From positions 18,602 to 82,601 of the forward strand of contig JASLKP010000002.1 in the NCBI GenBank assembly GCA_030747485.1: DNA of 64,000 bases. The letters are read 5' to 3'. This document shows, piece after piece, positions 11,517 through 38,515 of the stretch (position 1 is the first letter of the stretch; each line of letters starts with the position of its first letter). This DNA comes from Candidatus Thalassarchaeaceae archaeon (GTDB lineage: Archaea; Thermoplasmatota; Poseidoniia; Poseidoniales; Thalassarchaeaceae). A program made the position numbers and the translations under genes. A model generated the notes under the pieces. That model was not told the DNA's origin, did not search any database, and saw nothing but the letters and a program-made list of their open reading frames with translations.

Positions 11517-11552
11517 AACTCGCCGTCCGGCGTCTACTTGTTGAATGCAACG

Positions 11553-12014: not shown

Positions 12015-12114
12015 GTCTCTCCCCGTACGTGTGTGAACACCCCCCCTTCTTGAGACTGTCAGTAGTCAACGGCCTACCCATCCCATTATGATGGGTTGAC
12101 CTCTTCATCCGAAC

Positions 12115-18747: not shown

Positions 18748-18764
18748 TCAAATTTGGTGATTCA

Positions 18765-19571: not shown

Positions 19572-20101
19572 AGGAGGACGATTTGATGAAGGGTGCAAGA
19601 ATTGAGAATCAATTATATCGATTCAAATCTCCTGTTCCGATTAATCAGCAACGTGTTGTTGATGAGATTGGTGGAAATAAAAGTGGGCGCTTCGTGATGA
19701 TTTCACTTCGTTCCCCTCGCTCAACCCTTCTCATCGATGACCAAGATCGAATTATCGTACATGGGTGTAAGAAACAGGAGATTGCTCATTTGGCTGCCAA
19801 AGAAGTTCTTCTGAGATTGGGCGAAGATGAGTCTGGAATGACATTTGAGTTAGGTCCTGCAGTGGCTTCATTCGATTTTGGTTGCAGTGTGAAATTGGAG
19901 GGGGTACCAGATCTATTTCCAGATGCCACCATTGATACTGAATTAGATTGTTTGAGAATCGATGACACACGACACGAAGTTAAACTTCTCCTCTTTAGAA
20001 ATGGTCGGGGAATCGCCACAGAGGCACGTCATGAAAAACTTGTAACAATGGCTGCCAAACGTTGGATGCAACGCCTATCTGATGAGAATCTTCTGAGTTG
20101 A
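19568..20101 (+). CDS. Divergent TATA-box-binding-protein-like (two-repeat) protein
   Basis: 177 aa, which is TBP size. Two internal repeats show a TBP-like pattern: RIEN..., SLRSPRSTLLIDDQDRIIVHGCKKQEIAHLAAKEVLLRL, and LRIDDTRHEVKLLLFRNGRGIATEARHEKLVTMAAKRWMQRL. The start overlaps the upstream stop (ATGA). Confidence 0.45.
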   Translation: MKEDDLMKGARIENQLYRFKSPVPINQQRVVDEIGGNKSGRFVMISLRSPRSTLLIDDQDRIIVHGCKKQEIAHLAAKEVLLRLGEDESGMTFELGPAVASFDFGCSVKLEGVPDLFPDATIDTELDCLRIDDTRHEVKLLLFRNGRGIATEARHEKLVTMAAKRWMQRLSDENLLS

Positions 20102-20105
20102 TACG

Positions 20106-20993
20106 ATGGCCATCAAAAATGGCCGATGGGATGGCCCAATCTGGGACACACACCTTCATCTCGACCGAGCGGGCCGATTTTTAGATGCGACTCATGACTT
20201 CGTTCGTGCAGGGGGCACTCACCTATGTTTGGTCCACAAACCAGCTTTCACTGAGAAGTTACCAAGAACTCTAGACGAGGTCAAATCGGCTTACCAAGAG
20301 ACCATCGAAATTGGTGAAGCAGTACGTCGAGAATGTGGATTAGATGTTCGAGTGATTCTTGGGCCCCATCCGGTAGTTTGGGAACATCAGATTCACGACA
20401 TGGGGATTCAGGCTGCTAGTGACCTACATATTTCATCGGTTGAACTTGCAATTGAATATTGCCTTGAAGGCAAATCAGTCGCAGTGGGCGAAGTGGGTCG
20501 ACCTCATTATCCTGTATCTGATGAAATATGGGCTGCTGCAAATATCCAACTTGAAGAAGTCATGAGAATGGCAAACAGAGCAGATATTCCAATTCAGTTA
20601 CACGTTGAGGATCACGGTGCACAAACCAATGAAGAATTAGGTAGTCTTTGTGATCGAGCTGGACTACCTAGAAACCGGGCCATTCACCACTATGCTCCTG
20701 CGAATGTTGCTGCAGAGTTTACCCATGGATTATCTTCCTCAGTCTCTATGGGTAAGGATAGCATTTCAACATTAATTGAAACTCATGCAAACGCTTCAGC
20801 ATCTTGGACTATGGAGACTGATTACTTGGATGACCCTCGTCGACCAGGTAGTGTACTTGGGCCCAAGACCGTTCCGAAAAGAACTCAATCTCTAGTTTCA
20901 TCATTATTGGAACAGTATGATGCGTCGGAGGTAGAAGAATTGTTAATCAAAATACACCACCTTTGGCCATCTGAACTTTATGGAGAATTGTGA
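20106..20993 (+). CDS. TatD-family metal-dependent hydrolase
   Basis: N-terminal DTHLHLD metal-binding motif and later HVED / HH motifs; 295 aa. Confidence 0.8.
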   Translation: MAIKNGRWDGPIWDTHLHLDRAGRFLDATHDFVRAGGTHLCLVHKPAFTEKLPRTLDEVKSAYQETIEIGEAVRRECGLDVRVILGPHPVVWEHQIHDMGIQAASDLHISSVELAIEYCLEGKSVAVGEVGRPHYPVSDEIWAAANIQLEEVMRMANRADIPIQLHVEDHGAQTNEELGSLCDRAGLPRNRAIHHYAPANVAAEFTHGLSSSVSMGKDSISTLIETHANASASWTMETDYLDDPRRPGSVLGPKTVPKRTQSLVSSLLEQYDASEVEELLIKIHHLWPSELYGEL

Positions 20994-21006
20994 CCCTACG
21001 GGTCAC
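20990..21006. other. Hairpin (7-bp stem, loop TAC) overlapping the TatD stop codon, followed by TTTT
   Basis: GTGACCC-TAC-GGGTCAC, then tttt at 21007-21010. Confidence 0.6.
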
Positions 21007-21074
21007 TTTTGAGGGTCAGCCTCAAAACCCGTCGGCTTTGGGCCGAAGCAGCCCATAGGGCTGGAAGTGGACTG

Positions 21075-21866
21075 ATGTTGAATCTGAAGGGTAAGACCGC
21101 GCTTGTCTTTGGAGTTGCATCTGAGGATTCGATTGCATGGTCAATTTGTCAACATCTCGCAGAGGCAGGGTGCAACCTCATCCTCGGTTATCAGAAGAGA
21201 TTCATGAGCCGTGTTTTCCAACTCAAGAATCAGTTATCTGCCATTCAATCATTCTATCCCATCGATGTAGCCGAAGAGGAAACCACTGCAGAATTCTTTC
21301 ACGAATGGCAGAAGGAGATGCCTGGGGCTAAGGCAGATATTATCATCCATGCAATTGGTTTTGCACCACGAGAATGTTTTGACCGACACATGCTTTTCGT
21401 TGAAGATGGACCAATCAACACTGCAATGACGATTTCTGCCCATTCTCTACAACGTGTGATGCGCCATGCAATGCCTCATCTGTCTCCGAATTCGTCGACA
21501 ATTACGCTAACCTATGCTGCTAGTACACGACATGTTCCAAATTATGGAATCATGAGCATTGCCAAAGCGGCATTAGAGGCTTGGGTACGGGAATTGGCCG
21601 TTCGAGTTGGAGAGGACGGACACCGAGTGAATGCGATTTCTTCCGGACCAATTCGTACCTTAGCGGCATCTGGCATCCCAGGATTTTCTGACATCTTGGA
21701 ACATGTTGAACGCAATTCTCCACTGCGACGAAATGTAAACCAAGATGATGTGGCTGGTTGCGCAGTATGGTTGGCAAGTCCACTTGGTGCTGGTGTAACT
21801 GGGCAAATCATCCACGTAGATTGTGGTTATTCTAGCACCATGGTGCCCGACAGTATCAATGATTGA
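21075..21866 (+). CDS. fabI: Enoyl-[acyl-carrier-protein] reductase (NADH), FabI type
   Basis: Near full-length collinearity with bacterial FabI: GKTALVFGVASEDSIAW, IHAIGFAP, YGIMSIAKAALEAWVRELA (Y-x6-K), VNAISSGPIRTLAASGI. The stop lies 9 nt before the megasynthase ATG. Confidence 0.9.
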   Translation: MLNLKGKTALVFGVASEDSIAWSICQHLAEAGCNLILGYQKRFMSRVFQLKNQLSAIQSFYPIDVAEEETTAEFFHEWQKEMPGAKADIIIHAIGFAPRECFDRHMLFVEDGPINTAMTISAHSLQRVMRHAMPHLSPNSSTITLTYAASTRHVPNYGIMSIAKAALEAWVRELAVRVGEDGHRVNAISSGPIRTLAASGIPGFSDILEHVERNSPLRRNVNQDDVAGCAVWLASPLGAGVTGQIIHVDCGYSSTMVPDSIND

Positions 21867-21875
21867 GGTTATGAT

Positions 21876-24800
21876 ATGCCATCACTTGATGAGAATCCTC
21901 AGGATCCATTTGAGCCAATCGCCGTTATTGGCGTATCAGCATTATTACCTGATGCTGACGACATCACTACATTTTGGCAGAATATATTGGATGCAAAAGT
22001 ATCGTTGAAATCAGTCCCTTCAAATCGTTGGATTGAATCAGATTTCTGGGTTGAGGGTGGCCCAAAAAATATCGATGAAAACAAAACCTACTCCAAAATT
22101 GGTGGTTGGATTGAAGGATTTGAATTTGATTGGCGCAGGTGGAGGGTGCCGCCAGGTAGTCTACTACAAATCGACCCGACGCAACTTTGGGCAGTAGAAG
22201 TCAGTGCAGCAGCTCTTGAAGATGCAGGATATTTGGGCGAGGGTTCTAAGGCGTTACCAAAAGAGCGAACTGGGACTATTTTTGCGAACGCTCTTGGAGG
22301 TGAAAATCGCAATCTTTCCAATCATCGTGTATGGGCAGATCAATTCGCTCGTTACGCGGTTGAGATGGGCGGAATGCCCGAATCAGGGATTTCTGCATTC
22401 AAAGACGCGATGCTCGAAGGTTTGCCAAAAGTCGATGAAGATACCATGCCGGGTGAATTGGCGAATGTTGTTGCAGGTCGAGTGGCAAACTTACTTGATT
22501 TACAGGGGCCCAATTATGCTACAGATGCTGCTTGTGCAACAACCTTCGCTGCCGTTCTTGATGCGTGTCGTTTACTACAAACCAGACAGGTAGACCTGAT
22601 GATTGCTGGTGCAAGTGATCGAACAATGGATCCTGCAACCTTTGCTAAATTCAGTGCAATCGGAGCACTTTCTGCCACACATTCAACACCTTTCGATGCG
22701 GGTGCTAATGGTTTTGTCATGGGTGAAGGTGCAGGTGCAGTCATCCTCAAGCGATTATCAGATGCAATCAGTGATGGTGACAGAATTCACGCTGTGATAC
22801 GTGGAGTTGGTGCGAGTAGTGATGGCCGAGGTAAGGGGATTACTGCACCCAGCACACGGGGTCAAGTACAGGCGGTCGAGCGTGCATATCAACAGGCCGG
22901 TTATCGCGCATCTACAGTTGGCCTTATCGAAGCACATGGAACTAGTACTGTAGTCGGTGATGCCACTGAACTAACATCATTATCAACAGTATTTGCAGAT
23001 CTTCCTGCTGGGGAATCAGTCGCAGTCGGTTCCATAAAGAGTCAAATTGGCCATCTCAAATCAGCTGCAGGCATTGCAGGTTTACTCAAGGCGATACATG
23101 CAGTTAGGGATGGAATCATTCCTCCAAGTGCAGGATTCCAAAATCCAAATGAAAACATCTCATGGGATGAGAACCCCTTCTTTGTCCCTACATCAACATC
23201 TCCGTGGCCTTCCCCTATTGGTCATCCACGTCGTGCAGGAATCTCGGCCTTTGGTTTCGGGGGCACGAATTTTCATTGTGCAATAGAGGCCTATGACTAC
23301 GAACACCATTCTTCAATTGCAGCGGATTTCGATACACGCCGTTCAGCATGGCTCAATCCTCATCATATGGTTCAACAGCCCCCAATCGCAGAAATTGCTG
23401 AGAGGATGAGTTGGGATGAATTGAAAGAAATTGAAGGCGGTGTTTTGTTACTAAATGCTCCGACCATCAAACACCTCAAGATTAAGGCAGAGCAAGTCAT
23501 TACTACCCTGTTTAGTGGTGAAAATTTTGATCAATCACCGACTGGTAAACGACTATCATTTGAACTTCCAAAGGCAAGTTCTGATTTCGTTGCAGAAGGT
23601 GTTCGAATGGCCATTGTTGCTAGTGACTGGTCACAACTAAAGAAGAGGTATGAATTGTTTGAATCATCAGTAGATGATACTAGCAAATGGGCTTTCCTTT
23701 CCAAGCAATTGATTATGATTTCAGATGATCCTATATTGGGTGATAATGCAAAGGTTGCCCATCTCTATCCTGGACAGGGTAGCCAATATGTAGGCATGAC
23801 ACTGGATTTAATGAAACGTTACAATTGCATTGGTCAAACATGGGATGAAGCAGATCAGACCATGGTTGAGGTACTAGATGGTGAAACACTTTCCTCCTTT
23901 GTTCTTCGAGACAATCTAACTGAAGATGAACTCAAAGAGGCTGAATACAAACTCAAGCAAACAGAGTATACACAGCCAGCAATGCTGACTGCAAATCTCT
24001 CATTGTATCGCTTGCTCAAAGCACACCATTTAGAACCAGACATGGTGGCTGGGCACTCGCTTGGTGAATACGCGGCTTTGATGGTATCAGGGATTCTCAA
24101 TTTCGATGATGCATTGCGTGCAGTCGCTGCTCGTGGAACTGAAATGGGAAGTGTTGATGTCCCAGATACTGGATTGATGGCATCAGTAACGGCCCCATTT
24201 GAACAAATTGAAGCGGTGCTTGCAGAGGAAGAGGGGTATGTCATTGCAGCCAACAAGAATAGTCCAAAGATGACCGTCATCGCCGGAGAAACTGAATCGA
24301 TGAAACGGGTAGTCAAGCGCTTTGAAGAAGCCGGAGCACCTTGTGCGATTCTACAAACCAGTCATGCCTTCCATTCGCGGATTGTTGCACCTGCAAATGA
24401 ACCACTCCGCCGATTCCTTGAAGGATTGGACCTCTCTCTTCCAACCATACCAATCACTTCGAATGTAGATGGAGGTTGGTATCCAAACATCGTCGCTACT
24501 GGTGACGACCCTAAGGGGGCAATCTTAGCCAAACTTGCCCCTCAGATGTCCTCTGCAGTAGAATGGACAAAACAAGTGGAGACGATGTATTCCGACGGGG
24601 CGAGAATGTTCGTTGAAGTTGGACCGAAGCGTGCACTTTCTCTGTTTGCTGAACAAATTCTTGAGGAGCGCACACACGTCGTTACCAATACAAATCATCC
24701 TAAGATTGGTGGAATTTCTTCATTTCATGCGGCTTTGGCAATTCATGCCCTCGCCGGTCGAATACCAAACATTCCCGATGAAAAAAGTCCACATCTGACG

Positions 24801-27800
24801 GCCGCCTTCAAAGCAGGCGTTGTTCAATCAACATCACCTCAAGTGATTGATGCAGTGCAACCCGCGGTCAATCTCGATGAGGATAGCATCGCTGAATGTT
24901 ATCGTCAAGCAAAGGAAGAATTTGTTGCCAAAATCGTATCAGAGATTGCAGGTTTCCCTCTTAGAATGATTCATGGTTCTGCAAATTTAATCACCATTGG
25001 AATCAATCCAGATCAATTATTGAATATTCACCGTACCATCCAAAATTCAATTCGGGTAAAAGGCACTACATCTGCGAAAACACTCCCTGAATTGGTTGAA
25101 TGGTTGGATGAAGTTCCCGGTGGAGAATCAGTTGCCATTGAACGGTTTGGAAAAACGAGAACGACCCATGTACCTCCCTCAACGAGTCAACAACACATCC
25201 CACCACCTGCAGTTATCTCCGATCCTTTGGCCAATCGTCGTTCCAATCCATATGTTGTCACCGGAGTTAGTTTGGGTCTCCCTGGCATGTCAGAAGTTTT
25301 CGCCCCGGATGCACTTGATCGAATCATCGCCGGTGAGAATTTCATCTCTGAATTATCAGATGAAATCAAACAGAGATTGTTGGATAAGAACTTGATTAGA
25401 ATTGTCAAGCATAAAGACGGTTCTGCTGATTTTGTTCCTTGTGATTCGTTTGAACTCATTCCACAACTCGCTGGTAGGGCTGGTTATTTCGATTTGGCAG
25501 AACAGTATGGAGTGGACTCAAAAATTGCAGATGCGATGGATATCTCCACGAGCCTTGCCGTTGCGGCTGGACTAGAGGCCTTGAAGGATGCAGGATTGCC
25601 ACTGATTGCAGTAGAACAGACGAATAAAGCAGGTAAAAGAATCATACAGAAATGGAATCTTCCAGAATCGGAAAGAGACCGAACAGGTGTTGTCTTTGCC
25701 TCTTGTTTTCCTGGCATAGACATGGCAATCAAACATGCACAGAATAACGGTGCGGATGTAGATGGAAATTTTGATCGCCAATATCTTCTCCAAATTCTGA
25801 CCATGGGTCACTCACAGTTTGCCCAATGGATTGGGGCCAGGGGTCCAAATACTGCTGTAAACAATGCTTGCGCATCAACACCTGCAGCCATCGCTGTGGC
25901 TGAGGATTGGATGGCTACTGGCCGCTGTGACCGTGTCATTATTGTTAGTGCAGATAACGTAACCAGTGACAATCTGATGGAATGGATTGGCGCTGGTTTT
26001 GCCGCAGCTGGAGCCCATGCAATTGGCAATGTTGTCGAAGAGGTTGCTTTACCGTTCGATGTGCGACGAAATGGAATGCTGTTAGGAATGGGTGCTTGTG
26101 CGCTTGTTCTTGAGCGTTCAAAGGATGCTACAGAACGTGGTGTCATTCCATATGTCGAATTGTTAGGTGCACATATCGGGAATTCAGCCTATCACCCCAC
26201 TCGATTGGATGTCGACCATGTTTCAACATCACTTGATCAATTCATGTCAAAGATGGAGGAAGATTGGAACATCAATCGTCACACTATTGCTGCAAACTTA
26301 TCGTTCATGTCTCATGAGCCAGCAACACCGCCAAGAGGTGGCTCGGCTGCCGCTGAAATCCAAGCCTTGCGCCATACATTTGGTGAAAGCGCATCTAAGA
26401 TAATCATCACGAATACGAAGGGATTCACAGGTCACCCTATGGGGACTGGAATTGAGGATGTGGTTGCCATTCGTGGCTTAGCCCAAGGTGAATTCCCTCC
26501 GATTGCAAACTTCCAGCAACCAGATCCTGAACTTGGAGATTTACACTTGTCAGTTGGTGGTCCAGTGGATGTACAATACGTCTTACGACATGCTGCGGGT
26601 TTTGGTTCTCAAATGGCATTGACATTCCTCAAGAGAATTGCCTCTGATTTGAATCGAACAGATCAATCACGTCTTGCTTCATGGACATCAAATGTGGTAT
26701 CTGGTTCAGTTGATCTCAGAATTCTGAAACGAAAATTGGTTGCCTATGTTGACCCTGATGAACATCTAATCGGGGGAGTACAAGGAGAGCCCTTTGCAAT
26801 CGCGGAAATGAAGATTGAAGTTGTTGATCAAACACCGGTTGAGATTGAAACTCAACCCCTCATTGAACCCAGTGCCTCACCACCACCTTCTGGAGATGTA
26901 GCTGACAAAGTCGTCGAAGTAGTCGTCAAGCATACTGGTTACCCCGCAGATTTCATTGAACTTGATCAGGACTTAGAGGGGGAATTGGGCATTGATACTG
27001 TCAAGCAGGCAGAAATCATGGCAGAACTACGAGAGTTCTACGGGTTACCAGTGGACGAATCCTTCGTTCTTTCAGAACATCCAACTCTCAATCACATGAT
27101 TGCCTATCTGGATCAAGGTAGTGACTCTCCACCTGTTGATCCCGTTGAAGAATCAATGCCCCCTCTTCCTGATCCAACGGCGATAACACCACCAGTTGAA
27201 TCAGAAAAAACCGGTGTAAGACGTTGGCAAGTGGAGGTCGAAGAAGCCCCGCCTGAAGCCTCAACTCCCCTGGACATAGAGGGTAAAGTCATCGCAGTAA
27301 CCGATGACCCTTGGGGAATTGCAGATACCCTTTGTCATATTCTTGAAGCTGCAGGAATCGATACTGTTAGAATCATGCTTGACCCCAGTATCGTATCGAA
27401 GATTAAGATTGAGAAAGATGGAATGGTTGACATAATTCGCGTAGATCCAGAAAATCATCAACAATTGGAGGAGGTCAGCAAACATCTTGCCGATGTTGGT
27501 GAAGTCGTAGCATTACTGCACCTAGCTCCCTTACGACTTGCTGGTGTTGGATGGGATGAAGAAACACAGGCAGCACATCTTGCATCATCTACACATGGAC
27601 TGTTTGGCTTGCTTAAATCACTAGATGGCCACTTCTCCTCCTTATCTGATGGGACTGTCATGTCTGTGAGCGCAATGGATGGTCGCCATGGAAATGTCAG
27701 TGATCGTTTCAACGCGTTAGCAGCGGGATCTCATGGGATCGTCAAATCATATGCAAAGGAACATCCACATCTTCGCTGTCGGGCTGTTGATATCGACCCT

Positions 27801-29840
27801 GAGATGCTGATGGAGCCAACAAAATTAGCGCACCAAATCTGGGCTGAAGCCTTCGGAAGAATCGCCCCACTGGAGGTGGGGCTTACTCGTGATGATGGTC
27901 GCTGGGCCATGTGTTTGTACGAAGAAAATCTCATTGATCAAAGACATCCATTGAATGATGACGATGTATGGATTGTATCTGGTGGTGGTGGTGGTGTAAC
28001 TGCTCAATGTATTGTAGGTATTGCTGAGGCAAGTCCGAATGCGGGTGCAACTTTCGTATTGCTAGGCCGTACCAGATTGGACCCTTCTATTGAAGAATGG
28101 ATGAATAATGATGATGAAACATTAGAAAAACACAAGTTGGAATTGCGTGAATCCATGATCTCAGCCAGTGAATCTGGGAAAGTGACAATGGTTGAGTGGG
28201 ATCAAGAATGGAGTAAGAAGATGCGAAGTTTAGACATTCATCGTACGATGAGGGACATTCAAGTTTCAGGTAACCGAGCAATGTATGATGCGTGTGATGT
28301 AACCAATTCGAAATCTGTAGGTAAGGTCGTTAATGCAGTTCGAAAGGAATGTGGTCCGATTACAGGTTTGATTCATGGAGCTGGAATGGAGGATTCCAAG
28401 TTAGTTGCAGACAAGACTTGGGATATGTTCTCCAAGGTGATTTCAGTGAAAATCGATGGATGGCGTGCCCTCATTAGCGCTTTAGATGAAGATCTTGAGC
28501 ATCTCAGAATATTGTGTGCATTTACTTCGGTTGCAGGCCGATTCGGAAATGCAGGACAGGTTGATTATGCTGCGGCGAATAATATTCTAGATGCTGAAAT
28601 GTGCCGCATTGCTCACCATGCAGATGCTCCTAGAGCAGTCTCAATTGCTTGGTCTGGATGGAAGGACATCGGAATGGCAACGAAGGGTTCCATTGAATCT
28701 GTATTCGCTCAAGCAGGAATTGAGATGATTCCAGTTGATGTGGGTGTTGAGATTTTCATCAACGAAATATTGTCGGGAGGCAAACGCCGAGTCGTTGCTG
28801 CCGGCGCTCTCGGGCAGTTGGATTCCTCAGCCAGCAAGAGATCACCTCCGCAGAAATTGCCACCTGATACTTCAGGTTTGTTGGCTGAACCGAATCGCTT
28901 CCCCTTCGTTGATCGAGTCATCGAGCATGAACCATATGAGTACATCATTACTGAATGCACTCTTGACCCCCATCGATATCCATTCCTAATTGATCATGCA
29001 ATCGAAGGAACACCCTATCATCCTGGTGTCATGGCCATGGAGATGTTTGCAGAGGATGCACTGTTACTGTACCCGATGTGTACGTTGTCAGGATTTAATG
29101 ATGTGAAATTTGGTTTACCAATTAAATTAATCAAAGACGAAGTCAAGCTTCGTGTTGTTGCTAAATTTGCATCTCAAAATGAATCTGAAATTAGTATTCA
29201 ATGCCATCTTGAAAGCGATTTAATTAATTCGCAAGGAGAAATTTTCGGTGAACCACGAGTACACCATACAGCGACAGTCCGCCTTTTGAAAGATGGAGGT
29301 TTGCGTACTCCTATTATTCCATTCACAGCGCCAACTGGTCGTGCCAAAGCATCCTTCCAACCGGGTTTCGTATACGAGCGATTCTTCCATGGACCCAGAT
29401 TCCAAGTTCATGGTGGCTTGGTCAAAGGCATTCGTGATGGGGATGATGTTGGTGCAGATGGAATTGCTCTGTTGAGGAGCCAATTGCCCAATTCTGATTT
29501 ATTCCAAAAAGATGCTGATGGCGAGAATGTCTTGCTGGAATCGCTACCAATGTTAATTGAAGCATGTTTCCAAAATGCTGGTTTAGTTGCGATGGAAATC
29601 GATGAGATCTCAAGTCTTCCAATTGGTATTGAATCAGTTGAAGTCCTCAAATTACCAGCAGAGAGAGATGACCTAAGGATTCGAAGTTTCCGTCGAGAAT
29701 TGGAACTTGATGGTGTCACAGTACATGATGCGGTTGTATACGACCGGAATCAGAAACCTATTGTGGTATTGTCGGGTCTACGTTTGAAAGGGATGTCACC
29801 TATTCCTGATGAATTAAAATTCACACTTAAGAGGAAATAA
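21876..29840 (+). CDS. Type I FAS/PKS-like megasynthase: KS - AT - carrier-like - KS - ACP-like - KR - DH
   Basis: KS1 (~aa 12-470): DAAC220ATT, EAH354GT, IGH393LK. AT (~aa 625-935): GQGSQ, GHS728LG, HAFHS. Carrier-like fold (~aa 1000-1080): GINPDQ. KS2 (~aa 1124-1585): NNAC1332AS, SH1480E, GH1520P. ACP-like (~aa 1672-1746): ELGIDT1708VKQAE. KR (~aa 1795-2300): SGGGGGVTA, DY2231AAAN. DH (~aa 2338-2654): H2374AIEGTPYHP, i.e. HxxxGxxxxP. GAGG sits 8 nt upstream of the ATG. Confidence 0.9.
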   Translation: MPSLDENPQDPFEPIAVIGVSALLPDADDITTFWQNILDAKVSLKSVPSNRWIESDFWVEGGPKNIDENKTYSKIGGWIEGFEFDWRRWRVPPGSLLQIDPTQLWAVEVSAAALEDAGYLGEGSKALPKERTGTIFANALGGENRNLSNHRVWADQFARYAVEMGGMPESGISAFKDAMLEGLPKVDEDTMPGELANVVAGRVANLLDLQGPNYATDAACATTFAAVLDACRLLQTRQVDLMIAGASDRTMDPATFAKFSAIGALSATHSTPFDAGANGFVMGEGAGAVILKRLSDAISDGDRIHAVIRGVGASSDGRGKGITAPSTRGQVQAVERAYQQAGYRASTVGLIEAHGTSTVVGDATELTSLSTVFADLPAGESVAVGSIKSQIGHLKSAAGIAGLLKAIHAVRDGIIPPSAGFQNPNENISWDENPFFVPTSTSPWPSPIGHPRRAGISAFGFGGTNFHCAIEAYDYEHHSSIAADFDTRRSAWLNPHHMVQQPPIAEIAERMSWDELKEIEGGVLLLNAPTIKHLKIKAEQVITTLFSGENFDQSPTGKRLSFELPKASSDFVAEGVRMAIVASDWSQLKKRYELFESSVDDTSKWAFLSKQLIMISDDPILGDNAKVAHLYPGQGSQYVGMTLDLMKRYNCIGQTWDEADQTMVEVLDGETLSSFVLRDNLTEDELKEAEYKLKQTEYTQPAMLTANLSLYRLLKAHHLEPDMVAGHSLGEYAALMVSGILNFDDALRAVAARGTEMGSVDVPDTGLMASVTAPFEQIEAVLAEEEGYVIAANKNSPKMTVIAGETESMKRVVKRFEEAGAPCAILQTSHAFHSRIVAPANEPLRRFLEGLDLSLPTIPITSNVDGGWYPNIVATGDDPKGAILAKLAPQMSSAVEWTKQVETMYSDGARMFVEVGPKRALSLFAEQILEERTHVVTNTNHPKIGGISSFHAALAIHALAGRIPNIPDEKSPHLTAAFKAGVVQSTSPQVIDAVQPAVNLDEDSIAECYRQAKEEFVAKIVSEIAGFPLRMIHGSANLITIGINPDQLLNIHRTIQNSIRVKGTTSAKTLPELVEWLDEVPGGESVAIERFGKTRTTHVPPSTSQQHIPPPAVISDPLANRRSNPYVVTGVSLGLPGMSEVFAPDALDRIIAGENFISELSDEIKQRLLDKNLIRIVKHKDGSADFVPCDSFELIPQLAGRAGYFDLAEQYGVDSKIADAMDISTSLAVAAGLEALKDAGLPLIAVEQTNKAGKRIIQKWNLPESERDRTGVVFASCFPGIDMAIKHAQNNGADVDGNFDRQYLLQILTMGHSQFAQWIGARGPNTAVNNACASTPAAIAVAEDWMATGRCDRVIIVSADNVTSDNLMEWIGAGFAAAGAHAIGNVVEEVALPFDVRRNGMLLGMGACALVLERSKDATERGVIPYVELLGAHIGNSAYHPTRLDVDHVSTSLDQFMSKMEEDWNINRHTIAANLSFMSHEPATPPRGGSAAAEIQALRHTFGESASKIIITNTKGFTGHPMGTGIEDVVAIRGLAQGEFPPIANFQQPDPELGDLHLSVGGPVDVQYVLRHAAGFGSQMALTFLKRIASDLNRTDQSRLASWTSNVVSGSVDLRILKRKLVAYVDPDEHLIGGVQGEPFAIAEMKIEVVDQTPVEIETQPLIEPSASPPPSGDVADKVVEVVVKHTGYPADFIELDQDLEGELGIDTVKQAEIMAELREFYGLPVDESFVLSEHPTLNHMIAYLDQGSDSPPVDPVEESMPPLPDPTAITPPVESEKTGVRRWQVEVEEAPPEASTPLDIEGKVIAVTDDPWGIADTLCHILEAAGIDTVRIMLDPSIVSKIKIEKDGMVDIIRVDPENHQQLEEVSKHLADVGEVVALLHLAPLRLAGVGWDEETQAAHLASSTHGLFGLLKSLDGHFSSLSDGTVMSVSAMDGRHGNVSDRFNALAAGSHGIVKSYAKEHPHLRCRAVDIDPEMLMEPTKLAHQIWAEAFGRIAPLEVGLTRDDGRWAMCLYEENLIDQRHPLNDDDVWIVSGGGGGVTAQCIVGIAEASPNAGATFVLLGRTRLDPSIEEWMNNDDETLEKHKLELRESMISASESGKVTMVEWDQEWSKKMRSLDIHRTMRDIQVSGNRAMYDACDVTNSKSVGKVVNAVRKECGPITGLIHGAGMEDSKLVADKTWDMFSKVISVKIDGWRALISALDEDLEHLRILCAFTSVAGRFGNAGQVDYAAANNILDAEMCRIAHHADAPRAVSIAWSGWKDIGMATKGSIESVFAQAGIEMIPVDVGVEIFINEILSGGKRRVVAAGALGQLDSSASKRSPPQKLPPDTSGLLAEPNRFPFVDRVIEHEPYEYIITECTLDPHRYPFLIDHAIEGTPYHPGVMAMEMFAEDALLLYPMCTLSGFNDVKFGLPIKLIKDEVKLRVVAKFASQNESEISIQCHLESDLINSQGEIFGEPRVHHTATVRLLKDGGLRTPIIPFTAPTGRAKASFQPGFVYERFFHGPRFQVHGGLVKGIRDGDDVGADGIALLRSQLPNSDLFQKDADGENVLLESLPMLIEACFQNAGLVAMEIDEISSLPIGIESVEVLKLPAERDDLRIRSFRRELELDGVTVHDAVVYDRNQKPIVVLSGLRLKGMSPIPDELKFTLKRK

Positions 29841-29879
29841 AATGCAATTGAAGAATCGATTTTACAATTGGAGAATAAC

Positions 29880-30620
29880 ATGACGAATTATTGGAATCCA
29901 GCGGGACCAGTGTCCAGATTGTATCTCCCCTCAAATTGTGACCAAGTCGATGTTCAAGCCGTTTGGATACCTGTACATGACACCTCACCTGTGGATGAAA
30001 TTCCCGATATTTCTCAAGTACCACTTGTCAATCAATCTGAGGCATCAACATTTGTCATACCCAAGAGGGCACATGAGCATGCAGCAGGTCGCTATGCACT
30101 TGCAAGATTATTGCAAGGAATTGGTTTAGATCCTAATGAATTACAAATTATTCGTGACGAAAATCGCAAACCGAGTCTGATTTGGAATGATATTGATGTA
30201 GATTTACCACTCCCTGAAATCACCATCGGTCATTCGGGAGGTATTGCAATTGCAGCGATTTCAGTCGATGGCACACAAATCGGTTTGGATGTAGAACCAT
30301 TGGAACATCCTAGACAACGCAATCTCCTCTCGATGATGGCCAGTGGGGTGGAATTCCAGTATCTCAACGACGTTTGGGACCTTGACGCTGAAATTGGTAT
30401 GAAGGAAACCACTCGTACTTGGGTCATGAAAGAAGCAGTTCAGAAAGCCTGTGGCTATGGAATGCAAATTACACCACTGTCATTCAATGTACTCAACAAA
30501 GATGAGGTTGAATTGTCTCATGACGGACAGGGCTTCCGCTTGACGACACATCATTGGTTAGAAGATCTGATGGGGCAATCATTTGCCTTTGGTTTCTCAC
30601 GAATGTTAAGCATCGTCTAA
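29880..30620 (+). CDS. Sfp-type 4'-phosphopantetheinyl transferase
   Basis: Motifs NRKPSL, ITIGHSGGIAIAAIS, IGLDVEPL and WVMKEAVQKACG (W/F-x-x-KE-A-x-x-K). GGAG lies 8 nt upstream of ATG 29880; the track ORF starts at TTG 29868. Confidence 0.8.
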   Translation: MTNYWNPAGPVSRLYLPSNCDQVDVQAVWIPVHDTSPVDEIPDISQVPLVNQSEASTFVIPKRAHEHAAGRYALARLLQGIGLDPNELQIIRDENRKPSLIWNDIDVDLPLPEITIGHSGGIAIAAISVDGTQIGLDVEPLEHPRQRNLLSMMASGVEFQYLNDVWDLDAEIGMKETTRTWVMKEAVQKACGYGMQITPLSFNVLNKDEVELSHDGQGFRLTTHHWLEDLMGQSFAFGFSRMLSIV

Positions 30621-31951
30621 TCATTGGCCAAAATTGCTTCAAGTATATCCGAATCTTCTTCGTTAGCCATTTTTTGAACTAATTTCCAACCAAAAATTGT
30701 TGCAATTGCCAACAGAGGGACCATCACTCTGAATGACCATAGATATTGATTGACAACAGTTTGACTGTCTCCTATTGCTGCCATGATACCTGCTGCAAGA
30801 GCCGAACCAATACATTGTCCAATGAAAATTGCTGCTGCTGAAATCCCTACTCCTCTATTCCGTTCCTCTAAGTTGGTGTGATGTGCCAATAGTGCATCAC
30901 TGGAGGTGTAAAGTAATCCTACAACTGGAATGAGATAAATGGTGACTGCAATGGATGGTGGCATTCCGACTGCAAACAAAGTCCAGAGAACAAAGTAGAG
31001 CAATGCAGATGCAGTCAATACCTTCTCTGCTCCTATTTTGTCGCAAATTACGCCAGCATAAGTAAACAAAATTACGTTGAGAGCGAGGGCCCATGCTTCA
31101 AGAATAAATAGGACATCTAGATCGAAACCAATCTTTTCGATGTAATTCAATGAATTCAGAACTATAGCACCTCGAGGAATTGAAATTAGAAGGACAACGC
31201 AGAGTATTAACAATGGCCATTTACTTTGAAATGTGAATAATTCTTTCAAAGAAATGATATCCTTTTGCTCTCTTGGTAAATCGACAATAATACCTTCCAT
31301 ATTACGGAAACAAAGTGCTGCACCACCGTAGAATACACTTGCAACAATAGCGACAGCAATCATTCCATGATCACCGTATAGTCCACCCGCAACTGCTCCT
31401 AAGCCAACAGCTAGCATCCATCCGATTGCATGCATGAGTCCAATTGCTTCACCACGGAAATTTGGGGCCCATTCACTTGCCAGAGCAAATGGAATCCTCA
31501 TTGAACCGAGCATCATTCCTTGTAACAGTGATAGTACGACAAACGGAATGAGTCCAACGAATGGCATCGGGATGAGTAAACCAATGATAATTGCACATGC
31601 CATTAACATCAGTACTCTTCGTTGACCAAAACGATCTGCAATTGCTCCCCAAATGAATGAACCAACACCGTATACGAAAACAATGAGGCCAAGGTATAGT
31701 GGAGTAAACCAGGCTGGAGCACCCAATGCTTGTGCATGAAATCTGAATACAGTGAATCCTAACATGAACCAACATGCTTCCATCAGTGTTCTACCAAACA
31801 TATTCCAAGCAAACGAAGCACGTGCTTCGTATTCATCCTTGATTGTAATTTCACGCGATAAAAGTCGCTCCATTCTAAATCCTAGCCAGAGTGCCAACAG
31901 AACAGATGCCCCTATGGTTGCAAATTGCAGCCACAGGGTCGACACAATCAC
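30617..31951 (-). CDS. MFS-type transporter
   Basis: 444 aa with about 12 hydrophobic helices and a central loop. Convergent with the PPTase gene (4-nt overlap of the ends). Confidence 0.75.
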   Translation of the reverse strand: MIVSTLWLQFATIGASVLLALWLGFRMERLLSREITIKDEYEARASFAWNMFGRTLMEACWFMLGFTVFRFHAQALGAPAWFTPLYLGLIVFVYGVGSFIWGAIADRFGQRRVLMLMACAIIIGLLIPMPFVGLIPFVVLSLLQGMMLGSMRIPFALASEWAPNFRGEAIGLMHAIGWMLAVGLGAVAGGLYGDHGMIAVAIVASVFYGGAALCFRNMEGIIVDLPREQKDIISLKELFTFQSKWPLLILCVVLLISIPRGAIVLNSLNYIEKIGFDLDVLFILEAWALALNVILFTYAGVICDKIGAEKVLTASALLYFVLWTLFAVGMPPSIAVTIYLIPVVGLLYTSSDALLAHHTNLEERNRGVGISAAAIFIGQCIGSALAAGIMAAIGDSQTVVNQYLWSFRVMVPLLAIATIFGWKLVQKMANEEDSDILEAILAND

Positions 31952-32163
31952 TCCTCCTCTTCACACGAATCGTCCAGTTCCTTGCTACCAAGGGTGATGA
32001 TTAAGGCGATAACGAATAGTGGTGCCAAGACTTTAATCATCATCGGAGTGCCCCATTCAACTGGCCAAATTCCTACAGTCTCACCTAGCATTGCCCAAAG
32101 AGGTGCCATGGCAGGCATGAAGACGCAGAGCATCACAATCCCGAGTTTCCTCCGCCAGTGCAT
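31948..32163 (-). CDS. Small two-helix membrane protein, translationally coupled to the MFS gene
   Basis: 71 aa with two hydrophobic segments and an acidic tail. Its stop overlaps the MFS start by 4 nt. Confidence 0.4.
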   Translation of the reverse strand: MHWRRKLGIVMLCVFMPAMAPLWAMLGETVGIWPVEWGTPMMIKVLAPLFVIALIITLGSKELDDSCEEEE

Positions 32164-32252
32164 GGCCTAGTCCGAGCGGTCTCCCTCCATGAACATAAGG
32201 GAGTGTCCGGACCGAATCCGATAAGACCAACGCGAGGCCCGCAGAGATTACC

Positions 32253-32324
32253 GCGGATGTAGTGAAGGGGTTATCACCTGAGGTTTCCAACCTCATGTCA
32301 CGGGTTCAAATCCCGTCGTCCGCA
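32253..32324 (+). tRNA. tRNA-Gly (anticodon UCC)
   Basis: Manual cloverleaf: acceptor GCGGATG/CGTCCGC (one G-U pair), D arm GTGA-AGGGGTTA-TCAC, anticodon arm TGAGG-TT[TCC]AA-CCTCA, 4-nt variable loop, T arm ACGGG-TTCAAAT-CCCGT, discriminator A. No encoded CCA and no intron. Confidence 0.85.
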
Positions 32325-32376
32325 CTTCTGAATTTGATACTGGCGTATTGAAAAACCATCGCCGAGAGGCCACCAT

Positions 32377-34245
32377 ATGTCACGTCATCATCACGGCACC
32401 TCCGTCGGAATTTCTGATGATGATGGTGCGGACGACGAGACTCAAATCTTAGGCCGTAGGATTTGGAGAATTTTCCCATATATTCGTCCTTATCGTGTCA
32501 GAGCATGGTTTGGAATATTGACCAATGGTTTTGCTCGTGTATTCGATTTGATACCGTTTATCTTCATTGGTTTCGCAGTAGACTATTACAGTGGAGTAGT
32601 ATCTGGAGGAAGATTAGGTGAATTTCGAAATTTCTTAGATCAATATTTACTCAATTTGATTAGCGATGATCAGGCATTGTCTTACGGAGTCCTGATTTTC
32701 CTCGGCTTTGCAGGGCTTGCTATTTTCCAAGGTATTTCGGATTACTGTTGGCAAACACTAGGGTACAAGGTACAACACGATCTCAGATTGGATGCGACTC
32801 AAAGCCTCATCCGAATGGAAGCATCCTACTATGATCTCCGACAAACAGGCGTCCTCATGTCTGTATTATCTTCTGATGTCAATCAATTGGAGGATGTGAT
32901 CTCAGATTCATCTACCTCAATCATTCGTATTTTCACGACATTCATCACTGCATTTGTTATTCTAATGATGATGTCTTGGAAGTTGACAGCAGTTCTCTTT
33001 GGCCCCCTCATCCTTATTTTCCCAATGGTGTATTTTTTCTCAACGCGTGTACAGCGGAAATACCGCAAGCAACGTGAATCGACCGGTGGAATTAACGCGG
33101 TACTTGAAAACATCATTTCAGGCATTGCAGTCGTTCAAGCATACAATGCCCAAGAATGGGAAATTTCCCGTGTTGCAAATGAGAGTGAAGAATACCGTGA
33201 CGAAGCCATCGGGGCTAGCCTTGATCGTAATCGATTCATCCCTGGGTTGTACGGAGTTGCAGGAATCGTGTATGGTCTATGTGTTTCAATGGGTGGATGG
33301 TTGATGAAAGAAGGTGAGATATCGACAGGTGCTCTAGTCACCTTCCTTTTGATGATGACTCGCCTTTCGATGCCACTGTTCATCTTTGGAATGTTAGTCA
33401 ATCAATTGCAACGAGGCGAGGCCGCCGCGCGTCGTGTATTCGCGATGGTGGATTTGGACCCCAGTATCATAGATCATGAAGGTGCTACAGATTTAGAAAA
33501 TGCAATTGAAAGCATCGAATTCAGAGATGTTCACTTCACTTATCCGAATACGGATACTGCAGTTTTGAATGGCATATCTTTCACGGTGGGCCAAGGTGGA
33601 TTCCTCGGTGTCATGGGCCATACTGGTGCCGGGAAATCAACAATTCTCAAATTGATTCTACGGTATTATGAACCAGATTCTGGTGAAGTATTGGTAAATG
33701 GTCAAAACATTCAGGACATCACATTGGATAGTCTACGTAAACAGATGGGATTTGTGAATCAAGAGCCCTTCCTTTTCTACGGAAGTATTCGAGACAATGT
33801 GGTCTATTCTCGCGACGCCTCAGAAGAAGAAGTTGAGCGAGCCCTCCATCTGGCTGGTGCAGATGAATTCGTTGTCGAAATGGAAAATGGATTTGATACG
33901 TTGGTTGGAGATCGTGGCGTCATGCTATCGGGTGGCCAAAGAGCAAGAATATCTCTGGCACGTGCGATGCTAAAGAAACCAAGTCTCCTCATTTTGGATG
34001 AAGCATCTAGTGCTTTGGATGCTGAAACAGAAAGGCGAATCCAGTCCAATTTGTTGGGGACTGGTGGTTCCAGAACCACTATTGCAGTCGCTCATCGATT
34101 ATCGACGATTCGTAATGCCAATGAGATTCTATCAATGGTAGATGGCGCTGTTGTTGAACGAGGAACGCATGATGCATTGGTTGCCAATGATGGTGTCTAT
34201 TCAAGTCAATGGGCGATTCAAACTGGAGCTCTTGAGGAAAGGTGA
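32377..34245 (+). CDS. ABC exporter, fused permease-ATPase (MsbA/ABCB type)
   Basis: N-terminal six-helix TMD. Walker A GHTGAGKST, signature LSGGQRARISLARA, Walker B LLILDEASSALD. Confidence 0.9.
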   Translation: MSRHHHGTSVGISDDDGADDETQILGRRIWRIFPYIRPYRVRAWFGILTNGFARVFDLIPFIFIGFAVDYYSGVVSGGRLGEFRNFLDQYLLNLISDDQALSYGVLIFLGFAGLAIFQGISDYCWQTLGYKVQHDLRLDATQSLIRMEASYYDLRQTGVLMSVLSSDVNQLEDVISDSSTSIIRIFTTFITAFVILMMMSWKLTAVLFGPLILIFPMVYFFSTRVQRKYRKQRESTGGINAVLENIISGIAVVQAYNAQEWEISRVANESEEYRDEAIGASLDRNRFIPGLYGVAGIVYGLCVSMGGWLMKEGEISTGALVTFLLMMTRLSMPLFIFGMLVNQLQRGEAAARRVFAMVDLDPSIIDHEGATDLENAIESIEFRDVHFTYPNTDTAVLNGISFTVGQGGFLGVMGHTGAGKSTILKLILRYYEPDSGEVLVNGQNIQDITLDSLRKQMGFVNQEPFLFYGSIRDNVVYSRDASEEEVERALHLAGADEFVVEMENGFDTLVGDRGVMLSGGQRARISLARAMLKKPSLLILDEASSALDAETERRIQSNLLGTGGSRTTIAVAHRLSTIRNANEILSMVDGAVVERGTHDALVANDGVYSSQWAIQTGALEER

Positions 34246-34249
34246 CTTC

Positions 34250-36184: not shown

Positions 36185-36215
36185 CCTCTATCAAATCTGA
36201 GGGTTGAATGTCGCA

Positions 36216-36956: not shown

Positions 36957-37015
36957 TCCTATCGCCCCTGTCTAGCATTCGATGTCCAGAGGGGGCTCAA
37001 AAGGGTTGACCATGG

Positions 37016-37030
37016 AGCACCTACGGTGCT
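37016..37030. other. Hairpin (6-bp stem plus a G-T wobble, loop TAC) between the tfs stop and the pcn start
   Basis: AGCACC-TAC-GGTGCT. Confidence 0.55.
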
Positions 37031-37043
37031 TGCGTAGAAAACT

Positions 37044-37403: not shown

Positions 37404-37425
37404 GGGACATCGGATGTGTACTGAT

Positions 37426-37434
37426 ACTTTAATG
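37426..37434 (-). promoter_or_regulatory. Possible TATA box for tfs (leaderless-type spacing)
   Basis: The minus strand reads CATTAAAGT, centred about 27 nt upstream of the tfs ATG at 37403. Confidence 0.3.
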
Positions 37435-37506
37435 TCACACCTCAATGGTTTTGTCATCAATTGTATTAGACAGGGGTCTTGAAGGGGGAGATGCTCTCCG
37501 CGTTCC

Positions 37507-38511: not shown

Positions 38512-38515
38512 TTCA

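What the first reader, a model, noticed from the sequence alone, without database searches (positions are those of the whole stretch)
26889..27113. The ACP-like domain carries Thr (GIDT) at the phosphopantetheine attachment position
The only well-formed carrier domain reads DVADKVVEVVVKHTGYPADFIELDQDLEGELGIDTVKQAEIMAELRE. The position that is invariably Ser in GxDS(L/I) motifs is Thr1708, encoded by ACT at 26997-26999, which I verified in the DNA. A dedicated PPTase gene sits immediately downstream, so a modifiable carrier is expected. Four explanations are possible: the Thr is modified, a trans-acting ACP is used, the enzyme works on CoA thioesters, or the base call is wrong (TCT/AGT vs ACT).
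Basis: seen in the sequence. Interest (0 to 1): 0.7.

Follow-up and report, generated by a model that had tools for sequence, protein, structure and literature searches.

The report
Threonine-type acyl carrier in archaeal megasynthase
The carrier domain of this marine archaeal fatty-acid/polyketide-type megasynthase has threonine where all textbook carriers have the serine that holds the phosphopantetheine arm. This is a strictly conserved trait of a large bacterial and archaeal enzyme family, not an error, and it probably means the arm is attached to threonine.

Summary
ACT at 26997-26999 encodes Thr1708 of a 2654-aa ORF (21876-29840), and this Thr sits exactly where carrier proteins have the phosphopantetheinylated Ser, as the first residue of helix II.

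It is not a base-call error. In 80 homologous loci found through a different domain (KS2), 206 carriers have Thr and 2 have Ser. All four Thr codons are used.

The window comes from a Marine Group II archaeon (Poseidoniales). The gene is a PfaA-like synthase with the order KS-MAT-KS2-carrier-KR-DH. A FabI-like reductase lies upstream and an Sfp-type PPTase lies directly downstream. This matches the uncharacterised "Type R" secondary-lipid synthase layout. The PPTase follows the synthase in 55 of 56 loci long enough to show it.

Sister tandem-ACP families (PUFA synthases) have Ser in the same column. A few family members have switched back to Ser or mix Ser and Thr carriers in one protein. No other Ser is conserved in the domain.

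My best reading (about 0.65) is that Thr1708 is the 4'-phosphopantetheine attachment site and is loaded by the adjacent PPTase. This is inferred and not demonstrated. I found no report of phosphopantetheinyl-threonine in the searchable literature. I class it as a new variant of a known kind.

The parts
21009..21866 (+). FabI-like enoyl reductase (trans-acting ER candidate), directly upstream of the synthase
   Evidence: Pfam adh_short_C2 224.9 bits. NCBIfam FabI models score about 230 bits, below the equivalog cut-offs. Syntenic in all MGII loci that reach this far.
21876..29840 (+). 2654-aa PfaA-like megasynthase: KS1 - MAT - (degenerate carrier-like region) - KS2 - carrier - KR - DH
   Evidence: Pfam. 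TIGR02813 PfaA scores 780.7 bits, below its cut-off of 1010. Active-site motifs are intact: DAAC217, EAHGT352, GHSLG726, HAFH830, NNACAS1329, SHE1479, TGH1518, GGGGG2036, YAAAN2231, HAIEGTPYHP2374.
21912..23312 (+). KS1 (residues 13-479)
   Evidence: Pfam ketoacyl-synt, Ketoacyl-synt_C and KAsynt_C_assoc.
23763..24665 (+). Malonyl-type acyltransferase (residues 630-930; GHSLG, HAFH)
   Evidence: Pfam Acyl_transf_1 129.9 bits. TIGR00128 FabD 204 bits. Motifs.
24888..25130 (+). Possible degenerate carrier-like region after the AT (..AGFPLRMIHGSANLITIGINPDQLL..), with no hydroxyl residue at the site position
   Evidence: Weak. The carrier HMM gives a sub-threshold match at residues 1018-1036 in the window. 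The equivalent region in MGIIa loci (MRAVLGMSD..) is picked up by the same HMM. Its function is unknown.
25323..26795 (+). KS2, the family-specific second ketosynthase (called 'CLF' in the Type R description) with Cys/His/His retained
   Evidence: Alignment A1 has invariant C183, H331 and H371 and the motifs MGHSQFA and NTKGFTGH. Pfam gives partial ACP_syn_III and ketoacyl-synt matches. It co-occurs with Thr-type carriers.
26904..27122 (+). Carrier (ACP-like) domain, residues 1677-1749
   Evidence: Pfam PP-binding 37.2 bits. Family HMM 115 bits. AF2 model and Foldseek matches to ACPs.
26997..26999 (+). ACT codon = Thr1708, at the position of the phosphopantetheinylated Ser (first residue of helix II)
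   Evidence: Conserved as Thr in 206 of 208 carriers of homologous loci, using all four Thr codons.
28233..28667 (+). KR catalytic subdomain (residues 2120-2264; Tyr in YAAAN2231)
   Evidence: Pfam KR 92.4 bits. Motif.
28920..29837 (+). DH (hot-dog) domain, HxxxGxxxxP at residue 2374
   Evidence: Pfam PKS_DH_N scores 22.5 bits, below its cut-off of 27. Homologues carry PF21089 and PF14765. Motif.
29868..30620 (+). Sfp-type 4'-phosphopantetheinyl transferase, 28 nt downstream of the synthase stop codon
   Evidence: Pfam ACPS 32.2 bits against a cut-off of 25. Weak NCBIfam HetI match. Aligns to human AASDHPPT (2CG5) through all three catalytic motifs. A homologue lies on the same strand downstream in 55 of 56 loci with enough sequence.

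Best explanation
Thr1708 is the functional prosthetic-group site of the carrier domain. The Sfp-type PPTase encoded 28 nt downstream transfers 4'-phosphopantetheine from CoA onto the Thr side-chain hydroxyl, where canonical carriers use Ser. The resulting holo-carrier shuttles malonyl and acyl thioesters between KS1/KS2, MAT, KR and DH of the same polypeptide and the FabI-like reductase encoded upstream, in an iterative fatty-acid/'secondary lipid' synthase.

The Thr is an ancestral, selected feature of the whole KS-MAT-KS2-carrier(n)-KR-DH family. Marine Group II archaea acquired this family from bacteria.

Shown here: the position and conservation of the Thr, the ACP fold, intact catalytic motifs in every domain and in the PPTase, the PPTase linkage, and natural Ser/Thr interchange at this one column. 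Inferred: that the Thr is actually phosphopantetheinylated, which enzyme does it, and what the product is.
For: 1. Position. Thr aligns with the modified Ser of solved ACPs and is the N-cap of helix II in a confident model.

2. Selection on Thr. A sample anchored on KS2, and therefore blind to the carrier motif, gave 206 Thr and 2 Ser in 76 loci from MGII archaea, Chloroflexota, Myxococcota, Acidobacteriota and others. The codons are ACG 92, ACC 54, ACT 33 and ACA 26.

3. The hydroxyl is what is conserved. The only natural replacements at this position in well-formed family carriers are Ser. In MGII these are L008 (LGVDSVKQAE, TCA) and L081 (LGIDSIKQAE). They lie on separate branches of the archaeal clade. 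P0245, and more weakly P0146 and P0178, mix Ser and Thr carriers in one polypeptide. The sister PUFA-synthase ACPs (LGIDSIKRVEIL) have their known attachment Ser in the same column.

4. No alternative site. No other column exceeds 41% Ser.

5. A PPTase with intact GHSG / GLDVE / WxxKExxxK motifs lies on the same strand downstream of the synthase in 55 of 56 loci, across both domains of life, and within 211 nt in 52 of those 55. ACP and ACP synthase are reported absent from nearly all Archaea (10.1101/2024.07.05.601840), so this PPTase has no other obvious client.

6. The carriers are amplified in tandem (2-3 copies in other MGII lineages, up to 5-6 in bacteria). In PUFA synthases, productivity increases with the number of tandem ACPs (PMC5067506, abstract).

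7. All catalytic domains of the synthase keep their active-site residues, so a working carrier is needed.
Against: There is no direct evidence of modification. In the searchable library, the exact-phrase searches for a phosphopantetheinylated threonine, and the other threonine/carrier searches, returned nothing relevant. Current texts describe the site as a conserved serine (PMC12551638).

From memory and unverified: engineered Ser-to-Thr carriers are poor substrates for AcpS/Sfp.

I found no PPTase residue that consistently tracks the Thr/Ser state of the carriers. L008 has lost the invariant His of the IxHSG motif, but L081 keeps it.

Only 64 kb of this genome was examined, so a discrete ACP elsewhere is not excluded.
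Confidence: 0.65

Rival explanations
1. The integrated Thr carriers are not phosphopantetheinylated. They act as structural or docking modules, and the synthase works with a trans-acting Ser-type ACP encoded elsewhere, or directly on acyl-/malonyl-CoA. The neighbouring PPTase serves that other carrier.
For: A Ser at this position is otherwise near-universal (PMC12551638). An ACP-independent, CoA-based fatty-acid synthesis route has been described in archaea (10.1101/2024.07.05.601840). Only 64 kb of the genome was searched.
Against: No discrete ACP is present in the window. ACPs are reported absent from nearly all Archaea. A vestigial domain would not keep LG(I/V)DTVKQAE invariant across phyla with synonymous codon turnover, nor be kept in 2-6 tandem copies. 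PPTase linkage to the synthase is 55 of 56 loci. The only accepted substitutions at the site are Ser.
Confidence: 0.13
2. The Thr hydroxyl is used differently. Either it carries the acyl chain directly as an oxo-ester, or it receives a different prosthetic group, such as the phosphoribosyl-dephospho-CoA of the CitD/MdcC type.
For: A hydroxyl is conserved at this site (Thr, rarely Ser). The nature of the modification has not been observed.
Against: The linked enzyme is an Sfp-type PPTase with CoA/Mg-binding and catalytic motifs. It is not a CitX/MdcG-type transferase. By established knowledge of thiolase-fold KS enzymes, KS-catalysed decarboxylative Claisen chemistry uses thioesters. The sister families with Ser are bona fide Ppant carriers.
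Confidence: 0.07
3. The prosthetic group is attached to another residue of the domain (for example Thr1687 of the TGYP loop or Thr1737 before helix IV), and Thr1708 is only structural.
For: Two other Thr residues are more than 98% conserved in the domain (T20 and T70 of alignment A2).
Against: Neither lies at the helix-II N-cap that PPTases address in all solved complexes. Thr1708 is in register with the modified Ser in every pairwise alignment. The Ser/Thr interchange is seen at this column only.
Confidence: 0.04
4. Sequencing or assembly error: the true codon is TCT or AGT.
For: None beyond the rarity of Thr at this site.
Against: There are 206 Thr carriers in 76 independently assembled loci, encoded by four different Thr codons, and 413 Thr carriers in library representatives.
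Confidence: 0.01

Closest known systems
'Type R' secondary-lipid synthase gene clusters (Shulse & Allen 2011, PMC3098273): a pfaA homologue with KS-MAT-CLF-ACP(3-6)-KR followed by a PPTase gene, found in Koribacter, Solibacter, Elusimicrobium and Roseiflexus. The product is unknown.
   Same: The domain order is the same, the PPTase lies downstream, and the bacterial phyla among the homologues overlap (Acidobacteriota, Chloroflexota).
   Different: The host here is an archaeon. This lineage has one carrier rather than 3-6. A DH follows the KR and a FabI-like gene precedes the synthase. The 'CLF' keeps its catalytic Cys/His/His. The paper does not mention the Thr. I did not directly examine the four named reference genomes.
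PfaA of bacterial PUFA synthases and its tandem ACPs (TIGR02813; ACP motif LGIDSIKRVEIL)
   Same: It is the best-scoring NCBIfam model (780.7 bits). It shares KS-MAT-...-ACP-KR-DH logic, and its tandem carriers are recognisably homologous to this one, including the flanking LE.(D/E)LGID and K..E residues.
   Different: The score is below the PfaA cut-off of 1010. The all-Ser tandem-carrier representatives, which include those with the PUFA-type LGIDSIKRVEIL motif, lack a KS2 domain between the AT and the carriers; P0177 is the one exception. Their attachment residue is Ser followed by Ile, whereas here it is Thr followed by Val (T-V 402 and S-I 185 against T-I 11 and S-V 5).
Canonical ACP/PCP carrier domains (Pfam PF00550; E. 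coli AcpP Ser36)
   Same: Same four-helix fold, same D-x motif at the N-terminus of helix II, and a Pfam score above threshold.
   Different: The defining Ser is Thr.
Sfp-type (group II) PPTases: Sfp, HetI, PfaE, human AASDHPPT
   Same: The neighbouring gene product has the ACPS domain and the H / D-x-E / W-x-x-K-E-x-x-x-K motifs. It aligns to AASDHPPT (2CG5) across them.
   Different: It is very divergent (HetI model 28 bits against a cut-off of 370; Sfp E = 0.1). Its presumed client presents Thr. Its activity and specificity are untested.

Membership tests
Carrier protein domain (PF00550 PP-binding / ACP-like) | Profile match above the curated threshold | tested here: met
   37.2 bits against 20.8, profile positions 1-67 of 67.
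Carrier protein domain (PF00550 PP-binding / ACP-like) | Small helical-bundle ACP fold with the site at the N-terminus of helix II | tested here: met
   AF2 mean pLDDT 84.9 with helices 8-20, 41-55 and 71-82. The best Foldseek PDB hits are all ACPs, TM 0.73-0.79.
Carrier protein domain (PF00550 PP-binding / ACP-like) | Conserved Ser as the 4'-phosphopantetheine acceptor | tested here: not met
   Thr1708 occupies that column. No other conserved Ser exists in the domain.
Carrier protein domain (PF00550 PP-binding / ACP-like) | Post-translational phosphopantetheinylation (holo form) | not testable with these tools
   This needs mass spectrometry or a radiolabel/CoA-analogue assay.
Type R secondary-lipid synthase cluster (Shulse & Allen 2011) | One pfaA homologue with KS-MAT-CLF-ACPn-KR | tested here: met
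   Pfam order KS, AT, KS2, PP-binding, KR (+DH). n = 1 here and 2-3 in other MGII lineages.
Type R secondary-lipid synthase cluster (Shulse & Allen 2011) | PPTase gene downstream of the pfaA homologue | tested here: met
   ORF 29868-30620. Present in 55 of 56 loci.
Type R secondary-lipid synthase cluster (Shulse & Allen 2011) | Phylogenetic grouping of KS domains with the named Type R genomes | not tested
   The reference genomes (Koribacter, Solibacter, Roseiflexus, Elusimicrobium) were not retrieved. Only overlap of phyla among the homologues was seen.
PfaA, PUFA synthase subunit A (TIGR02813) | Score at or above the model cut-off, with companion pfaB/C/D genes | tested here: not met
   780.7 bits against 1010.1. 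Among the cluster's immediate neighbours (ORFs 8528-12777 and 18729-21866 upstream, 29868-40041 downstream) no PfaC/PfaD-like domain was found, and the ER candidate is FabI-like. The remaining ORFs of the window were not scanned.
Sfp-type PPTase (neighbouring gene) | ACPS domain with the Mg/CoA and catalytic motifs (H, GxDxE, WxxKExxxK) | tested here: met
   Pfam ACPS 32.2 against 25. GHSG121, GLDVE139 and WVMKEAVQK185. Aligned with 2CG5.
Sfp-type PPTase (neighbouring gene) | Transfers Ppant to the carrier (here, to Thr) | not testable with these tools
   Biochemical assay required.

The most novel reading that the evidence does not exclude
O-(4'-phosphopantetheinyl)-threonine may be a natural prosthetic linkage. 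It would be used by an entire and very large clade of KS-MAT-KS2-carrier megasynthases: thousands of 50%-identity clusters, at least 597 matching stretches in GTDB species-representative genomes, and the megasynthase found in many Marine Group II (planktonic archaeal) species genomes. A co-inherited clade of Thr-competent Sfp-type PPTases would install it. That would overturn the 'invariant serine' rule for carrier proteins. It would supply a naturally orthogonal carrier/PPTase pair. It would also show that a dominant group of ocean archaea runs a carrier-dependent, bacterial-type acyl-chain synthase.
Probability: 0.5. Interest if true: 0.8.

Novelty: new variant of a known kind. Interest (0 to 1): 0.7.

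Why it matters
The serine acceptor of carrier proteins is one of the most constant features in fatty-acid, polyketide and non-ribosomal peptide enzymology. Annotation rules, PROSITE-type patterns and engineering practice all assume it (the PROSITE point is from memory).

A large natural family that has fixed Thr instead, together with its own PPTase, raises three direct questions. Can PPTases phosphopantetheinylate Thr? What in the PPTase allows it? What does the extra methyl group provide? Candidate answers are insulation from the host's AcpS or AcpH, a phosphodiester more resistant to beta-elimination, or altered arm dynamics. All three are speculation on my part.

There are also practical consequences. 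Such carriers may be mis-scored as 'inactive' by genome-mining tools, and a Thr-specific pair could serve as an orthogonal labelling system.

Separately, the cluster is conserved in Marine Group II archaea. These lack the archaeal G1P backbone enzyme and are suspected of making mixed membranes (PMC6461757). A carrier-dependent acyl synthase in these organisms therefore bears on the 'lipid divide' question.

Tried and rejected
1. Base-call error. Rejected on conservation and codon diversity.

2. Ascertainment bias. The first homologue search uses shared 5-mers and could have selected for DTVKQ. I repeated the survey with loci anchored on KS2 motifs (MGHSQFA / NTKGFTGH), and the result was unchanged.

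3. An alternative conserved Ser in the domain. There is none.

4. A discrete ACP in the window.

5. PPTase covariation with the Ser/Thr state. L008, a Ser lineage, has Thr in place of the otherwise invariant His of the IxHSG motif. The second Ser lineage, L081, keeps the His, so there is no consistent signal.

6. Literature precedent. Searches on carrier protein with threonine in place of the conserved serine, exact phrases for phosphopantetheinyl-threonine, the motif strings, and MGII with PKS/ACP returned nothing relevant. The Beld 2014 PPTase review could not be retrieved.

7. Compositional sign of recent transfer. GC is flat at 0.43-0.47 across the window.

8. A second 'GIDT' at residue 1827 (AAGIDTVRIM). 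It lies in the pre-KR region and not in a carrier, so I treat it as coincidence.
Full report
**Observation.** The window reads ggc att gat act at 26988-26999. Pfam places a full-length PP-binding domain at residues 1677-1745 (37.2 bits against a cut-off of 20.8). phmmer against all PDB chains aligns the LGIDT motif without gaps to LG(V/I/A)DS of PigH ACP1/ACP2 and of several AcpPs, with Thr1708 on the modified Ser. An AlphaFold2 model of residues 1668-1753, built on an 18-sequence family alignment, has mean pLDDT 84.9 and helices at 8-20, 41-55 and 71-82. Thr is model residue 41, the first residue of helix II. Foldseek returns only ACPs at the top, with TM 0.73-0.79.

**What the gene is.** The ORF has the domain order KS1 (13-479), malonyl-type AT (630-930; GHSLG, HAFH), a second KS ('KS2', ~1150-1640), the carrier, KR (YAAAN at 2231) and a DH (HxxxGxxxxP at 2374). 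Every catalytic motif is intact. This includes Cys/His/His in KS2, which is therefore not a Cys-less chain-length factor. The best NCBIfam model is PfaA (780.7 bits), but this is below its cut-off of 1010. A FabI-like reductase lies directly upstream (21009-21866). An Sfp-type PPTase lies 28 nt downstream (29868-30620). It scores 32.2 bits on Pfam ACPS against a cut-off of 25, and its GHSG, GLDVE and WVMKEAVQK motifs align with those of human AASDHPPT. This layout matches the 'Type R' secondary-lipid synthase cluster of Shulse & Allen: KS-MAT-CLF-ACP(3-6)-KR plus a downstream PPTase, with unknown product (PMC3098273). That paper does not mention threonine.

**Whose genome it is.** The closest homologues are all from Candidatus Poseidoniales / Thalassarchaeaceae, that is, Marine Group II archaea. 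The window also encodes TBP, PCNA, Nop5 and fibrillarin. GC content is flat across the cluster. In MGII loci the order orf280-TBP-TatD-FabI-synthase-PPTase is conserved. A neighbour-joining tree of the KR-DH region puts all archaeal sequences in one clade, next to Myxococcota/Bradymonadales-like bacterial sequences. This is consistent with one old transfer from bacteria (a coarse method). Two large MGII comparative-genomics papers do not mention a synthase, ACP or polyketide genes in their main text. ACP and ACP synthase are described as absent from nearly all Archaea (10.1101/2024.07.05.601840).

**Is the Thr real and selected?** The first homologue search returned 200 non-redundant carriers, all with Thr. 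That tool pre-selects candidates by shared 5-mers, so it could be biased towards DTVKQ. I therefore built an alignment of KS2 only (A1) and scanned GTDB species-representative genomes with KS2 peptide patterns. At least 597 stretches encode a relative, and 80 loci were retrieved: 55 from MGII archaea and 25 from bacteria, including Chloroflexota, Myxococcota and Acidobacteriota. A carrier HMM run on six-frame translations found 206 carriers with Thr and 2 with Ser. The remaining hits were fragments cut by contig ends or degenerate carrier-like regions (8 hits with D, G or E at the site), most of which sit in the region after the AT. The site is encoded by ACG (92), ACC (54), ACT (33) and ACA (26), so synonymous change is free while the amino acid is held. 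Sequencing error is excluded.

**How the Thr relates to canonical Ser carriers.** I searched 1.84 billion cluster representatives with a profile of the carrier. This gave 7825 proteins at E <= 1e-3 and 1608 at E <= 1e-30. Of the 145 newly fetched representatives among the 150 best hits, 97 are all-Thr. Another 35 are all-Ser and have the PUFA-synthase-type motifs LGIDSIKRVEIL or LGIDSIKKAQLF in the same column. Three mix Ser and Thr carriers in one polypeptide, most clearly P0245 (LGVDSIKQAE followed by two LGIDTVKQAE). Thr carriers almost always follow a KS2 domain scoring more than 400 bits. Ser-type proteins lack KS2, with one exception, P0177. The residue after the site co-varies with it: T-V 402 and S-I 185 against T-I 11 and S-V 5. 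This would conserve the combined side-chain volume; that point is my inference, and the counts are not phylogenetically independent. Within MGII, two lineages have Ser instead: L008 (LGVDSVKQAE, codon TCA) and L081 (LGIDSIKQAE). They sit on different branches among Thr lineages. Evolution therefore interchanges only Ser and Thr at this column, and no other column of the domain has a conserved Ser (maximum 41%).

**Linkage to the PPTase.** An HMM built from the downstream PPTases finds a homologue on the same strand after the synthase in 55 of 56 loci that extend at least 800 nt beyond it, in archaea and bacteria alike. The gap is at most 211 nt in 52 of those 55.

**Interpretation.** The most economical reading is that the hydroxyl at the helix-II N-cap is the acceptor, that this family uses Thr for it, and that the co-inherited PPTase installs 4'-phosphopantetheine on Thr. 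The steps shown are position, fold, conservation, Ser/Thr exchange, PPTase linkage and intact catalytic residues. The steps inferred are the modification itself, the identity of the modifying enzyme, the iterative use of FabI in trans, and the product. My confidence is about 0.65.

**Rival explanations.** I considered four:
- A non-modified carrier with a trans ACP or CoA substrates (0.13).
- A different use of the hydroxyl (0.07).
- Attachment to another residue (0.04).
- Sequencing error (0.01).

I looked for a PPTase residue that tracks the Thr/Ser state of the carrier. L008 has lost an otherwise invariant His (IxHSG becomes ISTTD), but L081 has not, so no consistent correlate emerged.

**Novelty.** The gene-cluster type has been catalogued since 2011, and the carrier and PPTase belong to known superfamilies. 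What appears unreported is that the acceptor residue is Thr family-wide. None of the literature searches that targeted a Thr acceptor (threonine/carrier-protein terms, exact phrases, motif strings) returned a relevant paper. Current papers still describe the site as a conserved serine (PMC12551638). The library lacks most subscription journals, so an earlier mention cannot be excluded. I rate it a new variant of a known kind, with interest 0.7. It is an exception to a textbook invariant, it is widespread, it occurs in globally abundant archaea, and a simple mass-spectrometry experiment can test it.

Noticed in passing
window 19568-20101, 36216-36956(-), 37507-39217; cluster 21009-30620: The window is archaeal (TBP, PCNA, Nop5, fibrillarin) and comes from a Marine Group II (Thalassarchaeaceae-like) genome. 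The bacterial-type FabI-megasynthase-PPTase cluster is syntenic in 55 MGII species-level genomes among the 80 loci retrieved. The main text of two major MGII comparative-genomics papers does not mention it, although it bears on the proposed mixed membranes of MGII.
   Followed up: partly
window 25323-26795 (residues ~1150-1640): The second ketosynthase is labelled 'CLF' in the Type R description, but it keeps Cys1332, His1480 and His1520. It has family-specific invariant motifs (MGHSQFA, SHE(T/P)xTPxRGGSA, NTKGFTGH). The enzyme may therefore have two active KS domains. KS2 and Thr-type carriers co-occur almost perfectly.
   Followed up: partly
window 24888-25130 (residues ~1005-1085); e.g. L014, L026, L036, L053: A degenerate carrier-like region lies between the AT and KS2 (window ..ITIGINPDQLL..; MGIIa MRAVLGMSDxQIQ). 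It has Asp or Asn in place of a hydroxyl at the site. It may be a fossil carrier or a structural module.
   Followed up: no
L001-L056 versus window: Carrier copy number differs by MGII lineage. The window's lineage (L003, L004) has 1, a second MGIIb-like group (L005-L011) has 2, and Poseidoniaceae has 3. Bacterial relatives have up to 5-6.
   Followed up: partly
L008 9828-10481: L008 is one of the two MGII lineages whose carriers have Ser. In it, the cognate PPTase has Thr in place of the otherwise 100% conserved His of the IxHSG motif, and a second conserved Arg is also lost. The other Ser lineage (L081) keeps the His.
   Followed up: yes
carrier site and +1 position, all loci and representatives: The site residue and its neighbour are strongly coupled: Thr-Val against Ser-Ile (402 and 185, against 11 and 5 for the mixed pairs). 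This would keep the combined side-chain volume constant.
   Followed up: partly
window 12895-18747 (+) and 18729-19571 (+): A 1950-aa ORF and an overlapping 280-aa ORF have no Pfam or NCBIfam match. The 280-aa ORF is conserved and syntenic upstream of TBP in MGII loci.
   Followed up: no
window 11553-12014 (-): A 4HBT (hot-dog) thioesterase lies about 9 kb upstream of the cluster. It could release the acyl product. The synthase has no TE domain.
   Followed up: no
window 30617-31951 (-), 32377-34245 (+): An MFS transporter and an ABC exporter with fused membrane and ATPase domains follow the PPTase. The MFS gene is syntenic only in the MGIIb-like loci (L006, L007, L011, L017).
   Followed up: no
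L078 (Chloroflexia MAG): This is the only locus with at least 800 nt beyond the synthase in which no PPTase homologue was detected downstream.
   Followed up: no
L057-L080 versus L001-L056 (NJ tree): The archaeal synthases form one clade, next to the bacterial loci L059, L062, L063, L065 and L073 (labelled Myxococcota, Bradymonadales/Bradymonadaceae, Deltaproteobacteria and an 'Enterobacteriaceae' MAG). This suggests a single interdomain transfer, but it rests on distance-based analysis only.
   Followed up: partly
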